Shown: positions 34,620 through 44,101, counted from the stretch's first letter. The stretch: 64,000 nucleotides of DNA from an uncultured Verrucomicrobiae bacterium (GCA_963702845.1 OY969763.1:768001-832000), one strand, 5' to 3'. Notes: generated by a model not told the origin, from the sequence alone. Program-made: numbers and translations.

Positions 34620-34733
34620 CTACTGAACTGAACTGAACAACGCAGCGCAGATGACAGGCGCGCAACTGACTTTGTCTTTATAGGATGTTGGATAACCCGA
34701 AGCGCCAGTTAGCTCGATCTGGCTGGTTCGGCT

Positions 34734-35540
34734 TCACAGTTTCTCCCGATGCGGTTGGTGATCCCGATTCCAGCGGCGTAAGGCGTCGTCGCTGCTGTCT
34801 TCAAAAAGATATTGCAACGTCGGTGATTCAACGTGGCCATCGCAAAACACTACATCGGCTTTGCTTTGGTGGCGTGCAAACGTATTCCCTTCATTGTGAT
34901 GTTTTACATCAGATCAACTCGCCCGATCAATTACTGGGTTGCCGGTAAAGCCATCACCGATCGCAATCATGTCACCTGGATCAACTATTCCCGATTCGCC
35001 GACGGGAGGTGCAAGCGGGCCGTTTGCTGTAGCAGTTGTGCCGCCTAGGCCCAGCGCGCTATATTTTCCGGGGGAACTTAAGCCGACAAAGTTGTAGCCG
35101 TAAGAAAACCATGTCCTCAATGTATTTGGCGCAGGGTCGTTATTATACCAGCGGGCTGAAGGGCAGTTCCATACGCCATTTGTAAAAAAGGGCGTTTTAG
35201 ATTTTGGAACACCCAATTCTTCATAACTTAATGCTTCAGCCCAAGACCTGTAATGCTCCGAATACCCACTCCTTGAAATGTCTACATTTACGTACAAAGG
35301 GTAAAGATGGTTTTCTTGCACAAATCCATGCAAAGCGAGACCTAACTGCCGCACATTGTTGACGCATTGAATTTGCTGCGCTTTGCCTTTTGCTCGAGAG
35401 AACACGGCGAGTAATAGCGCTGCCAAAATCCCAATTATGGCAATAACGACTAAAAGTTCAATGAGCGTGAAGGCGGCACTACTCTGAAATTCTGGCCTTT
35501 GCTTTGTACCGGGTGATTGATGATCGGTAACCTTCGACAT
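34734..35540 (-). pseudogene. Prepilin-type N-terminal / H-X9-DG protein with one in-frame TGA
   Basis: [17 protein letters not shown] at 34914-34916; the same frame continues RHQSKADVVFCDGHVE...RRWNRDHQPH to a stop at 34734. Confidence 0.8.
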
Positions 35541-35717
35541 CTTTATCGCCTTCGCCCTAAAATTGCGCTGTCACCACTTCGATGTCAACGGGCTTCGAAC
35601 ATTCGTCGGCTTGTTCTGGGCCTTTGCCAGTTCACACCCTTCTCGCTCGGGCGATTGTTTATGTGCCGCCGCATGCGGTCAACGGAGCGGGACGAAACCA
35701 GCAGCGTCGCGAACTGA

Positions 35718-35754
35718 ACTGATAGGAAATTGCTTTTTGACGCTGGCGCGGTTA
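35718..35754 (+). repeat. 38-bp junction repeat, copy 1 (37 bp match)
   Basis: ACTGATAGGAAATTGCTTTTTGACGCTGGCGCGGTTA, preceded by ACTGA. Confidence 0.95.
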
Positions 35755-35755
35755 G

Positions 35756-36436
35756 AAAACGCTCTACCTCTGCTTCGACGAATGGAACGTCTGGTACCAC
35801 TCCATGGAAGCAGACAAAAAAATCCCGATGTGGGAAATCGCGCCGGGGCAGTTGGAAGATATTTACAATCTCGAAGACGCGCTGCTCGTCGGCTCGATGT
35901 TGATGTCTCTACAGCGACACGCCGACCGCGTCAAAATCGGCTGCATCGCCCAACTCTGCAACGTCATCGCTCCGATCATGACGAAAGTGGGCGGGCCCGC
36001 ATGGCGACAAACCATTTTCTATCCATTCGAACACGCGTCCGGGTTCGGTCGCGGCATCGCGTTAAACATTGAAATCTGTTCACCAAAATATCCGAACAAA
36101 GAATTCGACGAAGTGCCGTTCCTGGATGCAATGGCCACGCACGATCCAGAAAACGAAACCATCACCATTTTCTGCGTGAACCGCGATCAGCACGATGCGT
36201 TGCAATTGGACGTCGAATTGCACGCTTTGCCCGATGGCTGGCGCGTCCTCGAACATATCGTTCTCGAAAGCAAAGATTCCAAAGCGACAAACACAGCCGA
36301 TAATCCAAATCGCGTGAAACCACACAACCGCGGCAATGCGAAACTGACGAAGGACAAAATCACCGCGCAGTTACCGAGACTTTCGTGGAATGTAATTCGG
36401 CTGGGAAAACCTCAGAAACAAACGCGCGAAAAGTAG
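35756..36436 (+). pseudogene. abfA: 3' fragment of GH51 alpha-L-arabinofuranosidase
   Basis: Begins abruptly after the repeat: [14 protein letters not shown]...[14 protein letters not shown]...[22 protein letters not shown]...[10 protein letters not shown]-terminal catalytic half absent. Confidence 0.88.
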
Positions 36437-36442
36437 ACTCCA

Positions 36443-41988: not shown

Positions 41989-42933
41989 ATGTCTATGAAC
42001 TCTATTTCTCGCTCTTTGCTTAAACAGGTATTGATCTTAGCCGCCGTGCTGTGCATCACGCCGATGATGTGCCTGAAGGCCGCAACCGCCGGTAAGACAT
42101 TCGCTTCGCCGGAAGATGCAGTGAAGGCATTTTCAAACGCAGTAAACAATAATGACACCAACGCTCTGATAGTCATCTTTGGTTCGGACTTCGACCAAAT
42201 TCAGTCTCCAAACCCGGCCAGGAGACAGGAAGATATGGCAACCATCGCCAAACGCCTGAAGGAAGGCACGCAACTCGAACCTTACGCCAGCAACCGGGTT
42301 GTGGTCGACATCGGCAAAGACCGTTGGCCGTTTGCCGTCCCCATCGTTCAGACAAACGGTTCGTGGCAATTCGACACCGACGCCGGCAAGGACGAACTCC
42401 AAAGCCGCCGCGTTGGCGGCAATGAACGGGACGCGCTTAGAAGTGTCCGGGCTTACGCAGTGGCCCAGCGCGTATACGCGAGCAAAGATCGAAACGGCGA
42501 TCAGGTGCCGGAATACGCCCAGAAATTCATCAGTTCGCCCGGCCAACAAGACGGACTCTATTGGTCAGCGGACGCCGGCGGTGAAACCAGTCCACTCGGT
42601 CCACTTTACGCCCAGGCCCAAAGCGCAGCGCAGGCGACCGCAAATGGAAACGGCTCGACCGGGGCACAACCGTTCTACGGTTACTATTTCAAGATTCTCG
42701 ATCGCCAGGGCAAGAACGCTCAAGGAGGCGCTAAAGATTACGTGAACAATGGCCACATGACCGATGGTTTCGCCCTCGTTGCCTGGCCTGCGGATTACGG
42801 CAAATCAGGCGTCATGACCTTCATCATCAATCAACAGGGCAAGGTTTATCAAAAGGACCTTGGGAAAAACACGGCGGACATCGCCCAAAAGATGCAGGCC
42901 TACGATCCGGATCGAAGTTGGAACGCGGACTGA
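41989..42933 (+). CDS. DUF2950 domain protein
   Basis: WPFAVPIV, FDTDAG, RRVGGNE, YAQKFISSPG..DGLYW, PFYGYYFKIL, FALVAWPADYG.SGVMTF; usual partner of DUF3300. Confidence 0.92.
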   Translation: MSMNSISRSLLKQVLILAAVLCITPMMCLKAATAGKTFASPEDAVKAFSNAVNNNDTNALIVIFGSDFDQIQSPNPARRQEDMATIAKRLKEGTQLEPYASNRVVVDIGKDRWPFAVPIVQTNGSWQFDTDAGKDELQSRRVGGNERDALRSVRAYAVAQRVYASKDRNGDQVPEYAQKFISSPGQQDGLYWSADAGGETSPLGPLYAQAQSAAQATANGNGSTGAQPFYGYYFKILDRQGKNAQGGAKDYVNNGHMTDGFALVAWPADYGKSGVMTFIINQQGKVYQKDLGKNTADIAQKMQAYDPDRSWNAD

Positions 42934-42959
42934 TACTGATAACTGATAGGAAATCGCTT

Positions 42960-42997
42960 ACTGATAGGAAATTGCTTTTTGACGCTGGCGCGGTTAA
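42960..42997 (+). repeat. 38-bp junction repeat, copy 4
   Basis: Exact copy preceded by ACTGAT, ACTGATA and ACTGATAGGAAATCGCTT. Confidence 0.95.
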
Positions 42998-43268
42998 GGG
43001 AGAATTGCTTTTCACAATGTCTCATTTTTTGAGGATGCTGCGCCCGTAGAAGCGTTCAGTCAAGTGACCTTGCGCATTCCGGTGCATCGTCTTCAGTCCT
43101 GGCAGTCCCGGCGGATGCCTTAGAATGCGCTAAATCCAAGGCCCGATGGCGCTCTCAACACTTGGCATTTACGACCGGCGCGCTATTATATTGTCACAAG
43201 CGCCGGCGACATTCTCTACCTTTAAGTCGGCGCGATGGTTGAGGCGAAACGAAAGGAAACCAATTGCG

Positions 43269-44039
43269 ATGAAAAAATTGCTGGTTCTGTTTGTGTTGTG
43301 GGCGGGACTTCCGGCCCATGTTGTAGCGGATCTCGTAACATACCGTTTTGCCGGCGTTGTGATTGGGCAAAACAATACTGGCGTCTTCACCGGCGGTCAC
43401 CCTTACACGCTCACGATTGTAATTAACACTGCCGCCCACGGCAATTCTACCGTGCCGGAAAGAACTGATTACACCAACGCGATCACATCCTCGTATTTCA
43501 ATTACGATTCAGGCAACTACGTCGCACAAGGAACGAATGGAGGCACAGTGAGTGTGGAAAACGATGATCGTGGTCTTTACGATCACTTTCTAATACTCGG
43601 ACTTCCTGGGTTTTCTTCACTCGCGGGGCAGCCACTTACTTCTTGCGAAATTCACCTCATCGACACCAATCACATTGTATTTTCGAACAATGACCTGCCG
43701 CAGATTCTGCCAGTTGACGCGTTTCAGCAGCGCTATTTTAACATTGGCTGGGGAATTGATTGGGACACCCGTGGACTGGACCTAAGCATTGACTCAATTA
43801 CAGTTATTCAGCGTCGACCAGCCATCACAAGTTGGACTCGGACGATCGATTCACTTGCGTTCAATATAGAGTTCGCCGGCCAATCCTGCACAAACTTGTT
43901 GGAACGATCGTTTGCAATCGGTAGTTCTGCACAATGGGAGGTTGTCAGTTCCTGTGTTGCATCTGGCGGAAACACGAATTGGACCGTGCCACTGCAGATG
44001 GACCAACCCTCAGTGTTTTATCGTGTGAAAGGCCAATGA
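43269..44039 (+). CDS. Secreted hypothetical protein with C-terminal FYRV-type domain
   Basis: Signal peptide MKKLLVLF...; ends LERS...W...VFYRVKGQ. Confidence 0.75.
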   Translation: MKKLLVLFVLWAGLPAHVVADLVTYRFAGVVIGQNNTGVFTGGHPYTLTIVINTAAHGNSTVPERTDYTNAITSSYFNYDSGNYVAQGTNGGTVSVENDDRGLYDHFLILGLPGFSSLAGQPLTSCEIHLIDTNHIVFSNNDLPQILPVDAFQQRYFNIGWGIDWDTRGLDLSIDSITVIQRRPAITSWTRTIDSLAFNIEFAGQSCTNLLERSFAIGSSAQWEVVSSCVASGGNTNWTVPLQMDQPSVFYRVKGQ

Positions 44040-44063
44040 ACTGTTCCCGCTGATAAGTCATGC

Positions 44064-44101
44064 TTAACCGCGCCAGCGTTAAAAAGCAATTTCCTATCAG
44101 T
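44064..44101 (-). repeat. 38-bp junction repeat, copy 5 (inverted, one mismatch, no stutter)
   Basis: TTAACCGCGCCAGCGTTAAAAAGCAATTTCCTATCAGT. Confidence 0.93.

What the first reader, a model, noticed from the sequence alone, without database searches (positions are those of the whole stretch)
34620..44101. Unrelated DNA pieces joined by one 38-bp sequence: candidate undescribed DNA-capture array
Seen: ACTGATAGGAAATTGCTTTTTGACGCTGGCGCGGTTAA occurs at 35718, 39576, 40422 and 42960 (direct) and at 44064 (inverted, one mismatch), and I saw it nowhere else in the window. It separates unrelated segments of about 1.1, 3.8, 0.8, 2.5 and 1.1 kb. The array begins right after the stop codon of the PfkB gene. 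Similarity ends sharply at GGTTA(A). Inference: this looks like a repeat-spacer array with kilobase, gene-bearing spacers. Three models fit: (a) a site duplicated at each insertion, as in CRISPR adaptation or casposon target duplication; (b) a templated linker added while broken DNA ends are joined; (c) the terminal repeat of a non-autonomous transposon used in one-ended transposition, with copies 4 and 5 forming an inverted pair. The element is bounded by AAC...GTT-like triplets, as integron sites are, but has no attC hairpin. No catalytic gene is in the window.
Basis: partly seen in the sequence, partly recalled or inferred. Interest (0 to 1): 0.92.

Follow-up and report, generated by a model that had tools for sequence, protein, structure and literature searches.

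The report
38-bp joint repeat between DNA modules
A short 38-base sequence found only in one group of soil and freshwater bacteria sits exactly at the seams between unrelated, often mid-gene-cut pieces of DNA, so it probably marks where new DNA gets spliced into the chromosome, although the enzyme responsible is unknown.

Summary
The 38-mer occurs five times in the window (four direct copies, one inverted; 0 expected by chance) and separates unrelated segments, several of them cut mid-gene.

It is not confined to the window:
- The 6.03-Mb genome holds about 15 copies at 6 loci.
- 4 of 60 related genomes carry it, all in the same family.
- 17 metagenome contigs carry it.
- The flanks differ in nearly every copy.

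It fails the tests for known elements. It has no attC hairpin, it is not a sigma-70 promoter or terminator consensus, and it matches nothing in Rfam, plasmids, phages, IMG/VR or the paper library. No recombinase lies beside it. The genome lacks Cas1, reverse transcriptase, Tn3 transposase and integron integrase.

Clustered copies are almost always direct: 13 of 14 adjacent pairs. One related genome gives a filled-versus-empty comparison.

My best reading (about 0.4): it is a lineage-specific module-joint site. DNA inserts there and the site is regenerated on both sides. Microhomology joins at its two sharp edges explain the cut genes.

A true capture array in which each insertion duplicates the target remains possible (about 0.1-0.15).

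The parts
34620..34638 (+). CT(ACTGA)x3 run directly after the PfkB stop codon. It is the same pentamer that stutters at the left edge of the 38-mers.
   Evidence: Sequence read. In the same-genus genome G001, a convergent gene follows the pfkB stop instead.
34636..34697 (+). 'A' repeat: the 3' half of an attC-like site, ending GTTGGAT. The genome holds 9 copies.
   Evidence: In other copies it is preceded by CTAACTGATGCC... and by a stretch complementary to its GCAGCGCAG.
34914..35540 (-). Segment 1 gene: N-terminal methylation motif plus the start of DUF1559 (208 aa).
   Evidence: N_methyl 8.5e-07; SBP_bac_10 profile positions 3-35 of 268 only.
35718..35755 (+). 38-mer copy 1 (ends GGTTAG).
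35756..36436 (+). GH51 arabinofuranosidase fragment holding only the last ~226 codons. The reading frame is open right up to the repeat's TAG.
   Evidence: Alpha-L-AF_C 1-165/165, 8e-51. One search gives the alignment to full genes of G001 and G002. One search gives 80.7% identity to the 3' 648 nt of the genome's own ~1.5-kb gene at 635.6-637.1 kb.
36443..39172 (-). Kelch/He_PIG protein gene (909 aa) inside segment 2.
   Evidence: A paralogous Kelch-AbfA block lies at 633-636 kb, 70% identical.
39351..39584 (-). Response-regulator fragment holding the C-terminal DNA-binding domain only. It is cut at the left edge of copy 2.
   Evidence: Trans_reg_C 12-77/77, 1.1e-19. Searches compare the native paralogue at 1477 kb (GAGCGAA|TACTCGG) with the junction (TAGCGAA|CTGATAC).
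39576..39613 (+). 38-mer copy 2, preceded by the partial copies ACTGAT and ACTGATAGG (39561-39575).
39618..40037 (-). Small signal-peptide ORF (139 aa), cassette-like. Its stop codon lies 4 nt from the right edge of copy 2.
40055..40146 (-). 'D' repeat: an integron attI-like site ending GTTAGGC that heads the 139-aa ORF. The genome holds 36 copies.
   Evidence: It resembles the sequence between intI and the first cassette in G025 and G027.
40149..40410 (+). 'E' repeat (copies at 141.8 kb, 2244.5 kb and 4288 kb) that runs up to the left edge of copy 3.
40422..40459 (+). 38-mer copy 3, preceded by ACTGA and ACTGAT.
40675..42933 (+). DUF3300 plus DUF2950 gene pair (segment 4). DUF2950 has lost about its last 4 codons and takes its stop codon from the ACTGA stutter.
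   Evidence: One search compares it with the paralogue at 4592.7 kb.
42960..42997 (+). 38-mer copy 4, preceded by ACTGAT, ACTGATA and an 18-nt partial copy (42929-42959).
42998..43101 (+). 'F' extension, beginning AGGGAGAATTGCTTTTCAC (a second, diverged copy of the repeat's 5' part). It is shared with the copies at 6007, 6015 and 315 kb, and in shorter form with G002, G003 and G007.
43146..44039 (+). ORF of 297 aa, probably a secreted protein starting at MKKLLVLF (about 43269). It has no family match and is not a transposase.
44064..44101 (-). 38-mer copy 5, inverted, with one mismatch.
44345..45543 (+). Neighbouring multi-copy 'G' element: two small ORFs, one with a weak helix-turn-helix or small-terminase-like match, plus blocks of 10-11-bp phased repeats. 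It lies within 4 kb of 3 of the 6 38-mer loci.

Best explanation
The 38-mer is a lineage-specific 'module joint': a conserved, non-palindromic site of Verrucomicrobiales chromosomes at which extra DNA is spliced in. The array most likely grew from one resident copy, which still keeps its usual downstream partner (F) behind copy 4, through at least three insertions of 0.8-3.8 kb DNA pieces. Each insertion left a complete 38-mer on both sides. The simplest way to get this is Campbell-type integration of circular DNA that itself carries a 38-mer. The integration could be catalysed by an unidentified recombinase acting in trans or by general recombination on the 38-bp identity. New repeat-to-foreign-DNA joints are made by short-homology (2-6 nt) joins exactly at the two edges of the repeat, and this is why genes are cut mid-frame. 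Shown here: the anatomy, the conservation, the direct orientation, one filled/empty pair, and the junction sequences. Inferred: circular intermediates, the order of events and the enzyme.
For: 1. Both edges are sharp at the same nucleotides in every copy, while the flanks are unrelated (37 distinct copies aligned).
2. Clustered copies are direct. In 9 clusters (4 in this genome, 5 elsewhere), 13 of 14 adjacent pairs are direct.
3. Only the last direct copy (copy 4) keeps the F extension. F follows the repeat at 6007, 6015 and 315 kb, and in G002, G003 and G007.
4. A filled/empty pair exists within G007. Contig C49 reads DUF3150-stop | 38-mer | 3.2 kb with two genes | 38-mer + ~175 nt | DUF1257. 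The paralogous contig C307 has 29 nt there and no 38-mer. The two C49 copies differ in their 5' halves but are identical over the 3' 22 nt, as expected if two different alleles crossed over.
5. G002:C502 carries F behind a foreign left half that ends ...CCGGCGGTTA. This looks like a reciprocal product.
6. Six junctions with truncated genes were seen. AbfA', kdpE', MFS', the last 4 codons of DUF2950, and PPK2' in a metagenome contig were checked against uncut relatives. So was a gene homologue cut at the G002:C662 copy. Where the uncut sequence could be read, it shares 2-6 nt with the repeat's usual neighbour.
7. The copies at 6007-6015 kb lie inside a 13.8-kb insertion that G002 and G003 lack.
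8. The perfect copies sit in regions rich in other mobile-module repeats. The attI-like and attC-like repeats lie within 4 kb of 2 of the 6 loci. The G element lies within 4 kb of 3 of the 6 loci (random expectation P about 1.5e-4).
Against: - No recombinase is linked to the repeat. None lies in the window. None appears consistently in 11 metagenome loci (one weak Phage_integrase hit). PF10136 lies beside one G002 copy but is absent from G000 and common in genomes without the repeat.
- The site has no dyad symmetry of the kind tyrosine or serine recombinases use.
- A single-crossover site does not by itself explain why both edges are junction points, nor the stutter of partial 5' copies at the left edge.
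- The G007 block went into a site without a 38-mer, with a 25-nt loss. This looks like illegitimate insertion of a linear piece.
- No circular form was observed.
- The second array (181-183 kb) does not keep F at its end.
- Orientation counts include related copies, such as the two units at 6007 and 6015 kb, so they are not independent.
Confidence: 0.4

Rival explanations
1. True capture array with target duplication. An unknown integrase nicks the two strands at the two edges of the 38-mer, joins any DNA fragment to the staggered ends, and repair copies the 38-mer. This would resemble CRISPR adaptation or casposon insertion, but with kilobase inserts.
For: This model alone explains all of the following together: two sharp edges, identical direct copies, fragments cut at arbitrary points on both ends (segment 2), and the stutter. 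Every partial copy starts at base 1 and stops after 5, 6, 7, 9 or 18 nt, as if one nick were fixed and the other sometimes misplaced. Copies within a cluster mostly share cluster-specific variants.
Against: - The genome has no Cas1, and no candidate enzyme lies beside any copy.
- The junctions show 2-6 nt microhomology, which an integrase would not need.
- The two copies flanking the G007 insert differ in their 5' halves.
- The empty G007 site has no 38-mer.
- Most genomes carry only 1-2 copies.
- One copy in the window is inverted.
Confidence: 0.13
2. Passive hot spot. The 38-mer is a conserved binding site or cis-regulatory element, for example an operator or a barrier to replication or transcription. 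It has no dedicated recombination role. Breaks or template switches happen at the bound site, and ordinary repair with microhomology builds the mosaics.
For: - About 35 nt are strongly conserved across genera and 17 metagenome contigs, which suggests a selected function in place.
- A tandem half-repeat (GGARAATTGCTTTT twice, 33 nt apart) looks like a pair of binding sites.
- The junctions carry microhomology, and there is stutter.
- The segment between the 181-kb and 182-kb copies holds at least one further joint without a 38-mer.
- In five copies, the start codon of a divergent gene lies 0-40 nt from the left edge.
Against: - It matches no sigma-70 promoter or terminator consensus and has no preferred orientation toward neighbouring genes (my tally: about 9 co-oriented, 13 not).
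- Nothing in this model predicts direct-only clusters or regeneration of complete copies on both sides of inserts.
- In the cases examined, the flanks are never conserved between genomes, unlike a vertically inherited regulatory site.
Confidence: 0.2
3. Integron-derived site. The 38-mer serves as an unconventional attI-like or secondary site (crossover at G|TTA) for the integron integrase of this bacterial family. The array is then a decayed cassette array of the CALIN type.
For: - The family has true integrons: intI scores over the cut-off in 4 of 31 genomes.
- The window array contains an attI-like site that heads a small ORF, and an attC-like half-site.
- Six of the seven perfect 38-mers lie within 4 kb of such sites.
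- In this genus the repeat starts AACTGAT, like the local attC-like site, and ends GTTAAG, which is close to GTTRRRY.
Against: - The genome has no intI, and none of the four relatives that carry the repeat has one. None of the four genomes with intI carries the repeat.
- Four of the six loci are more than 130 kb from any attI- or attC-like site.
- In other genera the repeat ends GGTCA, GGTAA or GGTAG, so GTT is not conserved.
- There is no attC fold.
- The partner sites lack GTT.
Confidence: 0.1
4. Solo end of a transposon. The 38-mer would be the terminal repeat of a non-autonomous or lost element that moves or rearranges DNA by one-ended transposition.
For: It has the length of a Tn3-family terminal repeat (recalled, not tested). 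It has one very sharp edge. Copies 4 and 5 form an inverted pair around 1.1 kb. It shows a patchy, horizontal-looking distribution.
Against: - No conserved interior lies on either side of most copies.
- The ORF between copies 4 and 5 is a secreted protein, not a transposase.
- The genome has no Tn3 transposase. No Y2 transposase was found either, but that search rang in no control genome.
- The 3 rve, 7 Y1, 2 serine and 10 tyrosine-recombinase loci examined have no 38-mer-like ends.
- No target duplications flank the copies.
- Orientation within clusters is direct rather than random.
- ISfinder could not be consulted.
Confidence: 0.08
5. Assembly or library artefact, with an adapter or chimeric joins.
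For: The genome is a single 6.03-Mb contig of unknown provenance. Raw reads were not available.
Against: - The same motif, with natural variation, occurs in 4 independent related genomes and 17 metagenome contigs.
- Diverged copies exist within this genome itself.
- A contig from a soil run, identical over 155 bases, crosses one junction.
Confidence: 0.02

Closest known systems
Integron cassette arrays and CALINs (attC/attI sites)
   Same: A short site repeated in direct orientation between unrelated, tightly packed gene modules. Similarity ends sharply at a GTT-containing edge. Such arrays can exist without an integrase nearby. Integron-type sites lie within the same array.
   Different: The repeat has no imperfect-palindrome fold. 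The segments are multi-gene and often cut mid-gene. GTT is not conserved outside this genus. Carriage of the repeat and of intI do not coincide.
CRISPR arrays and Cas1-mediated adaptation; casposon target duplication
   Same: The repeat has CRISPR-repeat length. Direct copies are regenerated on both sides of foreign inserts. The inserts have arbitrary ends.
   Different: The inserts are 0.8-3.8 kb rather than ~30 bp. Only 2-5 copies occur per array. There is no Cas1, no leader and no palindromic repeat. The same repeat also occurs singly at many unrelated loci.
REP/BIME elements and their join-point role in rearrangements (recalled from the literature, not read here)
   Same: An intergenic element of about 35-38 nt, specific to a lineage, often sitting directly after stop codons and found at rearrangement join points.
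   Different: The repeat forms no hairpin. The genome holds about 15 copies, not hundreds. Clusters are direct rather than alternating. The genome has Y1 transposases, but none is flanked by the repeat.
PeSL regulatory cassettes at module joints of T4-type phage hyperplastic regions
   Same: Short conserved sequences at the boundaries of swappable accessory modules. Shuffling is thought to proceed by recombination between copies.
   Different: The 38-mer contains no promoter or stem-loop consensus. It is chromosomal, was not found in phage collections, and abuts truncated genes.
Tn3-family 38-bp terminal repeats and one-ended transposition (recalled)
   Same: The length matches, one end is sharp, and variable DNA is attached to one fixed end.
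   Different: There is no transposase. No shared interior adjoins the repeat. Both edges are sharp, and clusters are direct.

Membership tests
Integron attC site | Imperfect inverted repeats (R''-L'' pairing with L'-R') that fold the bottom strand into a hairpin with extrahelical bases | tested here: not met
   Nine stretches of 76-143 nt holding the repeat and its flanks (four copies and one G002 copy, one or both strands) were folded as DNA. z-scores ranged from -1.68 to +1.07 and no common stem appeared.
Integron attC site | Boxes RYYYAAC at the 5' end and GTTRRRY at the 3' end | tested here: inconclusive
   In this genus the repeat is bounded by ..GAAC|TGAT and GCGCG|GTTAAG. In other genera the 3' end reads GGTCA, GGTAA or GGTAG.
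Integron (system) | An intI gene with an adjacent attI, or at least carriage in genomes that have intI | tested here: not met
   TIGR02249 scores over its cut-off in 4 of 31 family genomes (G013, G015, G025, G027). It does not do so in G000 or in the 4 relatives that carry the repeat.
CRISPR array | Many short (~30-40 bp) spacers between repeats, a leader, and cas genes including cas1 | tested here: not met
   The 'spacers' are 0.8-3.8 kb and contain genes. PF01867 has no match in the genome, while the control search rang in 7 of 14 genomes.
Tn3-family transposon end | The 38-bp repeat bounds an element that encodes, or is served by, a DDE_Tnp_Tn3 transposase, with 5-bp target duplications | tested here: not met
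   PF01526 has no match in the genome. There is no shared interior and there are no duplications at the flanks.
IS200/IS605 or REP/RAYT elements | Subterminal hairpins recognised by a Y1 HUH transposase, with the element flanking or near the gene | tested here: not met
   The repeat forms no hairpin. There are 7 Y1_Tnp matches in the genome. None has a 38-mer-like sequence within 4 kb.
IS91/ISCR rolling-circle elements | A Y2 transposase with ori and ter ends next to GAAC/CAAG targets | tested here: inconclusive
   PF04986 gave no match, but the control search rang nowhere either. GAAC precedes 4 copies, but other tetramers precede the rest.
Known RNA family | A match to an Rfam covariance model | tested here: not met
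   Eight loci were searched at E<=1. Only a chance isrG hit appeared (17.7 bits against a gathering score of 100), and it lay away from the repeat.
Sigma-70 promoter or intrinsic terminator | Consensus hexamers with 16-18 nt spacing, or a GC hairpin followed by a T run | tested here: not met
   None of the 11 promoter-like and 8 terminator-like sites in 34500-44400 falls on a 38-mer.

The most novel reading that the evidence does not exclude
The 38-mer is the target of an undescribed DNA-capture reaction. One strand is nicked at base 1 and the other at base 38, occasionally at base 5-18, which leaves the stutter. Any kilobase-sized DNA fragment, foreign or the cell's own, is ligated in, and repair duplicates the site. 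Arrays therefore record successive captures, much as a CRISPR array does but with gene-sized spacers. The system would be hairpin-less and cas-less, and found in Verrucomicrobiales.
Probability: 0.12. Interest if true: 0.95.

Novelty: new variant of a known kind. Interest (0 to 1): 0.62.

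Why it matters
If the repeat is a genuine insertion site, it adds a hairpin-free type of module joint, not linked to an integrase, to the short list of ways bacteria stack accessory genes (integrons, tRNA-linked islands, phage hot spots). It would do so in a phylum whose mobile genetics is almost unknown. It also gives a simple sequence tag for finding variable regions and recent DNA gain in Verrucomicrobiales genomes and MAGs. 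The precise edges, the stutter and the microhomology joints make the mechanism directly testable. If the bolder target-duplication reading held, it would be the first array that captures gene-sized DNA at a fixed site.

Tried and rejected
- **attC fold:** rejected.
- **Rfam:** nothing.
- **Structured RNA in the F extension:** a conserved GATGC/GCATC stem exists, but only 5 sequences were available and variation was too low to judge.
- **Sigma-70, sigma-54 and ECF promoter readings:** the consensus scan found nothing on the repeat. The sigma-54 and ECF spacings were checked by eye only and do not fit.
- **boxA or ops/JUMPStart-like leader element:** there is a resemblance from memory (TGCTTTTTGAC; GCGGTAG in some variants). 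I dropped it because the repeat shows no orientation preference toward downstream genes.
- **PF10136 'site-specific recombinase':** it lies next to one G002 copy, but there is no association across the family.
- **ORF 43146-44039 as a transposase between inverted copies:** it is a signal-peptide protein with no family match.
- **Simple insertion of the 38-mer into a gene:** the missing halves of AbfA and PPK2 are not on the other side of the repeat.
- **Shared 'left arm' between copy 1 and the G002 copies:** only about 12 nt are shared and BLAST does not find it significant, so I dropped it as evidence.
- **Degenerate 38-mer at the left edge of the 13.8-kb island:** only a GCGAACTGAT stub is there, and the alignment is not convincing.
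- **Synteny of the pfkB locus in a more distant genome (G017):** not conserved, so uninformative.
- **Base composition:** the array (GC 0.47-0.56) does not stand out from its flanks.
- **Sequencing runs:** no RNA holder was listed. Two soil DNA runs hold small shares (0.08 and 0.07), present only as short contigs.
- **Other collections:** no match in plasmids, phages or IMG/VR, and no paper holds the 22-mer. One paper search on Verrucomicrobia, integron, attC and cassette returned general integron papers only (listing seen, none read).

Full report
**Observation**

The 38-mer ACTGATAGGAAATTGCTTTTTGACGCTGGCGCGGTTAA occurs at 35718, 39576, 40422 and 42960 on the + strand. It occurs at 44064-44101 on the - strand with one mismatch. 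No match appeared in 100 shuffles. Copy 1 ends in G rather than A.

Aligning 80 nt of flank on each side shows that identity is confined to the repeat. The exception is its left side, where partial copies all start at base 1. They read ACTGA before copy 1, ACTGAT and ACTGATAGG before copy 2, and ACTGA and ACTGAT before copy 3. Before copy 4 they read ACTGAT, ACTGATA and an 18-nt piece. Directly after the PfkB stop codon comes CT(ACTGA)x3 fused to a different repeat.

**What the segments are**

| Segment | Content | Evidence |
|---|---|---|
| 1 | A gene of the pseudopilin-like DUF1559 type | |
| 2 | See below: fragments cut at both ends | |
| 3 | A 139-aa signal-peptide ORF headed, on the - strand, by a repeat ending GTTAGGC, followed by another repeat family | |
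| 4 | A DUF3300/DUF2950 pair | |
| 5 | The F extension and a 297-aa probable secreted protein | |

- **Segment 2, left end.** It starts with the last ~226 codons of a GH51 arabinofuranosidase. The frame is open up to the repeat's TAG. Full genes in two same-genus genomes align up to the junction and then continue. The fragment is 80.7% identical to the genome's own ~1.5-kb gene at 635.6-637.1 kb.
- **Segment 2, right end.** It finishes with only the DNA-binding domain of a response regulator (Trans_reg_C positions 12-77 of 77, E 1.1e-19), cut at the left edge of copy 2.
- **Segment 4.** DUF2950 has lost about its last four codons. Its stop codon comes from the ACTGA stutter.

**Distribution**

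The window is G000:C1:768001-832000 of a single 6.03-Mb contig. Record titles of related MAGs place it in Verrucomicrobiales.

- **This genome.** Further copies lie at 181374, 182816, 6007074, 6007284, 6015461 and 6015672. One-base-shorter variants lie near 315.0, 315.9, 1151.0 and 3127.8 kb. That makes about 15 copies at 6 loci.
- **Related genomes.** With up to 3 mismatches in a 30-mer, 4 of 60 related genomes carry it. All 4 are in the same family (4 of 30), and none of 30 genomes from other families of the order does.
- **Public genomes.** An 18-mer scan gave 35 hits. Six of them, in Verrucomicrobia MAGs, carry the whole motif. The other 29 match only the 18-mer.
- **Metagenomes.** Seventeen metagenome contigs carry it.
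- **Conserved core.** Across 37 distinct copies the conserved block is TGATAGGAAATTGCTTTTTGACGCT(G/C)GCGCGGT. The flanks differ in nearly every copy.
- **F extension.** In about eight copies the repeat is followed by GGGAGAAT(T/C)G(C/G)TTTT. This is a diverged second copy of its own 5' part and the start of a ~100-nt extension, F.
- **No hits** in plasmids, phages, IMG/VR or the paper library.

**What it is not**

- It does not fold. The z-scores of DNA folds of the repeat with its flanks run from -1.68 to +1.07. It is therefore not an attC, REP or IS200-type end.
- No Rfam family matches.
- No promoter-like or terminator-like consensus site falls on it.
- By my tally it has no preferred orientation toward neighbouring genes: about 9 co-oriented and 13 not.
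- The window holds no recombinase or transposase.
- The genome lacks RVT_1, Cas1, Tn3 transposase, integron integrase and PF10136. Y2_Tnp also gave no match, but that search rang in no control genome.
- The genome does have 11 Phage_integrase hits, 2 large serine recombinases, 3 rve and 7 Y1_Tnp hits. None is next to a copy. None of the loci examined has 38-mer-like sequence above background within 4-6 kb.
- Across 11 metagenome loci, the only recombinase seen near the repeat is one weak Phage_integrase hit.

**Clues to the process**

1. **Orientation.** In 9 clusters, 13 of 14 adjacent pairs are direct. The clusters are the window, 181-183 kb, 315 kb and 6007-6015 kb in this genome, plus G007:C49, G002:C431 and three metagenome contigs. 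Some of these pairs are related by descent, so the count overstates independence.
2. **The end of the array.** Only the last direct copy, copy 4, is followed by F, the repeat's usual partner elsewhere.
3. **A filled/empty pair in G007.** Contig C49 reads DUF3150 stop | 38-mer | 3.2 kb with two genes | 38-mer | ~175 nt | DUF1257. Paralogous contig C307 has 29 nt between the same two genes and no 38-mer. The two C49 copies differ in the 5' half and are identical over the last 22 nt.
4. **A possible reciprocal product.** G002:C502 has F behind an unrelated left half ending CCGGCGGTTA.
5. **Microhomology at the joints.** Where an uncut version of a flank exists, the joint shows 2-6 shared bases with the repeat's usual neighbour.
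   - GCGAA at kdpE'.
   - GGAA/CTG at an MFS-like 5' fragment. That fragment is 93% identical to the genome's own 522-aa gene at 2390.8 kb. The MFS label itself rests on my recall, because Pfam gave no hit on the 75-aa piece.
   - A|AG at the right edge, in AbfA', in PPK2' of a metagenome contig, and in a G002 copy compared with G000 at 1846 kb.
6. **Context.**
   - The 6007-6015 kb copies lie in a 13.8-kb insertion between nuoI and the next gene. G002 and G003 lack that insertion. It also carries a small and a large terminase gene and a fibre-like gene.
   - Two of the six loci are within 4 kb of integron-type attI-like or attC-like repeats.
   - Three of the six are within 4 kb of the multi-copy G element, against a random expectation of P about 1.5e-4.
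   - In the same-genus genome G001, pfkB is flanked directly by orthologues of genes that lie 8 kb and 36 kb away in this genome. The locus is therefore rearranged and expanded here.

**Interpretation**

The data show a discrete, conserved unit with two precise edges that sits at seams between DNA modules and is regenerated on both sides of inserts.

I commit, at about 0.4, to insertion at a resident copy with regeneration of the site. The mechanism would be Campbell-type integration of DNA that carries a copy. Microhomology joins at the edges create new repeat-to-foreign junctions.

The direct orientation, the retained F, the G007 pair with two different alleles, and the G002 reciprocal-like product support this. 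The lack of any linked enzyme, the absence of dyad symmetry, the use of both edges and the stutter weigh against it. Circles and the enzyme are inferred, not seen.

The rivals:
- **Target-duplication capture model (0.13).** It explains the two edges and the stutter best. However, it has no enzyme, does not need the observed microhomology, and does not predict the differing alleles in G007.
- **Passive conserved binding site acting as a break or template-switch hot spot (0.2).** It explains the conservation, microhomology and stutter. It does not explain direct-only clusters.
- **Integron-dependent reading (0.1).** It fits the company the perfect copies keep. It fails on distribution and on the non-conserved GTT.
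- **Transposon end (0.08) and artefact (0.02).** Both are unlikely.

**Comparison and novelty**

The repeat works most like an integron or att-type site that stacks modules. It fails the defining tests of attC, CRISPR, Tn3 ends, REP/RAYT and Rfam families (see the membership table).

Earlier notes of this scan describe other joint repeats in the same genome: multiplied attI-like sites and a 59-base island-boundary repeat. I confirmed the attI likeness of the D repeat against relatives' integrons. I confirmed the multi-copy nature of the G element. I did not re-test the other notes.

I therefore rate this as a new variant of a known kind: a conserved boundary or insertion site for accessory modules. 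The open possibility that it is something categorically new is stated separately.

ISfinder and raw assembly reads were not available. Either could change the verdict.

Noticed in passing
window 44345-45543 (repeat blocks 45166-45732): A multi-copy element (12 loci in the genome) with two small ORFs, one a weak helix-turn-helix or small-terminase-like match. It also carries blocks of different 10-11-bp tandem repeats (TGCATCnnnnn, GTCACGTTTG, GGTAAAGAAAC, GTACAGAAAA, GTAATCGGAG) phased at one helical turn. This looks like an array of protein-binding sites. In three loci it lies on the left-edge side of a 38-mer in the same relative orientation.
   Followed up: partly
window 40055-40146 (- strand) and 35 other genome sites: An integron attI-like repeat ending GTTAGGC, similar to the sequence between intI and the first cassette in relatives G025 and G027. 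This genome holds 36 copies although it has no intI. In the window, and at 183.4 kb (nearest copy 182816), the small ORF it heads ends close to the right edge of a 38-mer.
   Followed up: partly
window 34636-34697 and 8 other genome sites: The 3' half of an attC-like site. Full copies elsewhere start CTAACTGATGCC and carry a stretch complementary to its GCAGCGCAG. Here the 5' half is replaced by (ACTGA)x3 directly after the PfkB stop codon.
   Followed up: partly
G000:C1:6002308-6016133 (locus L014 about 309-14133): A 13.8-kb insertion that splits what in G002 and G003 are adjacent genes of a NADH dehydrogenase operon. It carries a small and a large terminase gene, a collagen-repeat/S74 fibre-like gene, and a pseudopilin/TPR gene cluster. 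It also carries two ~280-bp units made of 38-mer, F, variant 38-mer and 31 nt.
   Followed up: partly
G000:C1:635629-637124 (locus L012 6596-8124, - strand): The genome's own full-length GH51 arabinofuranosidase region reads as two ORFs (125 and 335 aa), where relatives have about 1.5 kb of continuous homology. This may be a frameshift, a pseudogene or a sequencing error.
   Followed up: no
G007 contigs C49, C307, C185, C65, C18, C470, C448: A multi-copy element containing DUF3150 and DUF1257 genes, with at least 5 paralogous copies at 73-89% identity. The spacer between the two genes is variable. It is the site of the 38-mer-bounded 3.5-kb insert in C49.
   Followed up: partly
locus L013 10684-10816 (G000:C1:182683-182815): A ~135-nt piece, 93% identical to the start of the genome's own 522-aa transporter-like gene at 2390.8 kb. 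It is embedded between unrelated DNA and a 38-mer. Its left end is a joint without any 38-mer, so the region is a mosaic of small scraps.
   Followed up: partly
G000:C1:74948-77982 versus G002:C502:13536-15387: An orthologous locus with conserved flanks (84-85% identity) but different inserts in the two genomes. The G002 insert holds the F extension without a 38-mer, followed by a repeat that also precedes a G element at 2354.5 kb.
   Followed up: no
G000:C1:1145486-1145821 and 3340072-3340407: Two long (326-327 aa) Y1 HUH transposase-like ORFs. One lies 5 kb from the 1151-kb 38-mer and the other 3.4 kb from G-element copies. No sequence link to the 38-mer was found.
   Followed up: partly
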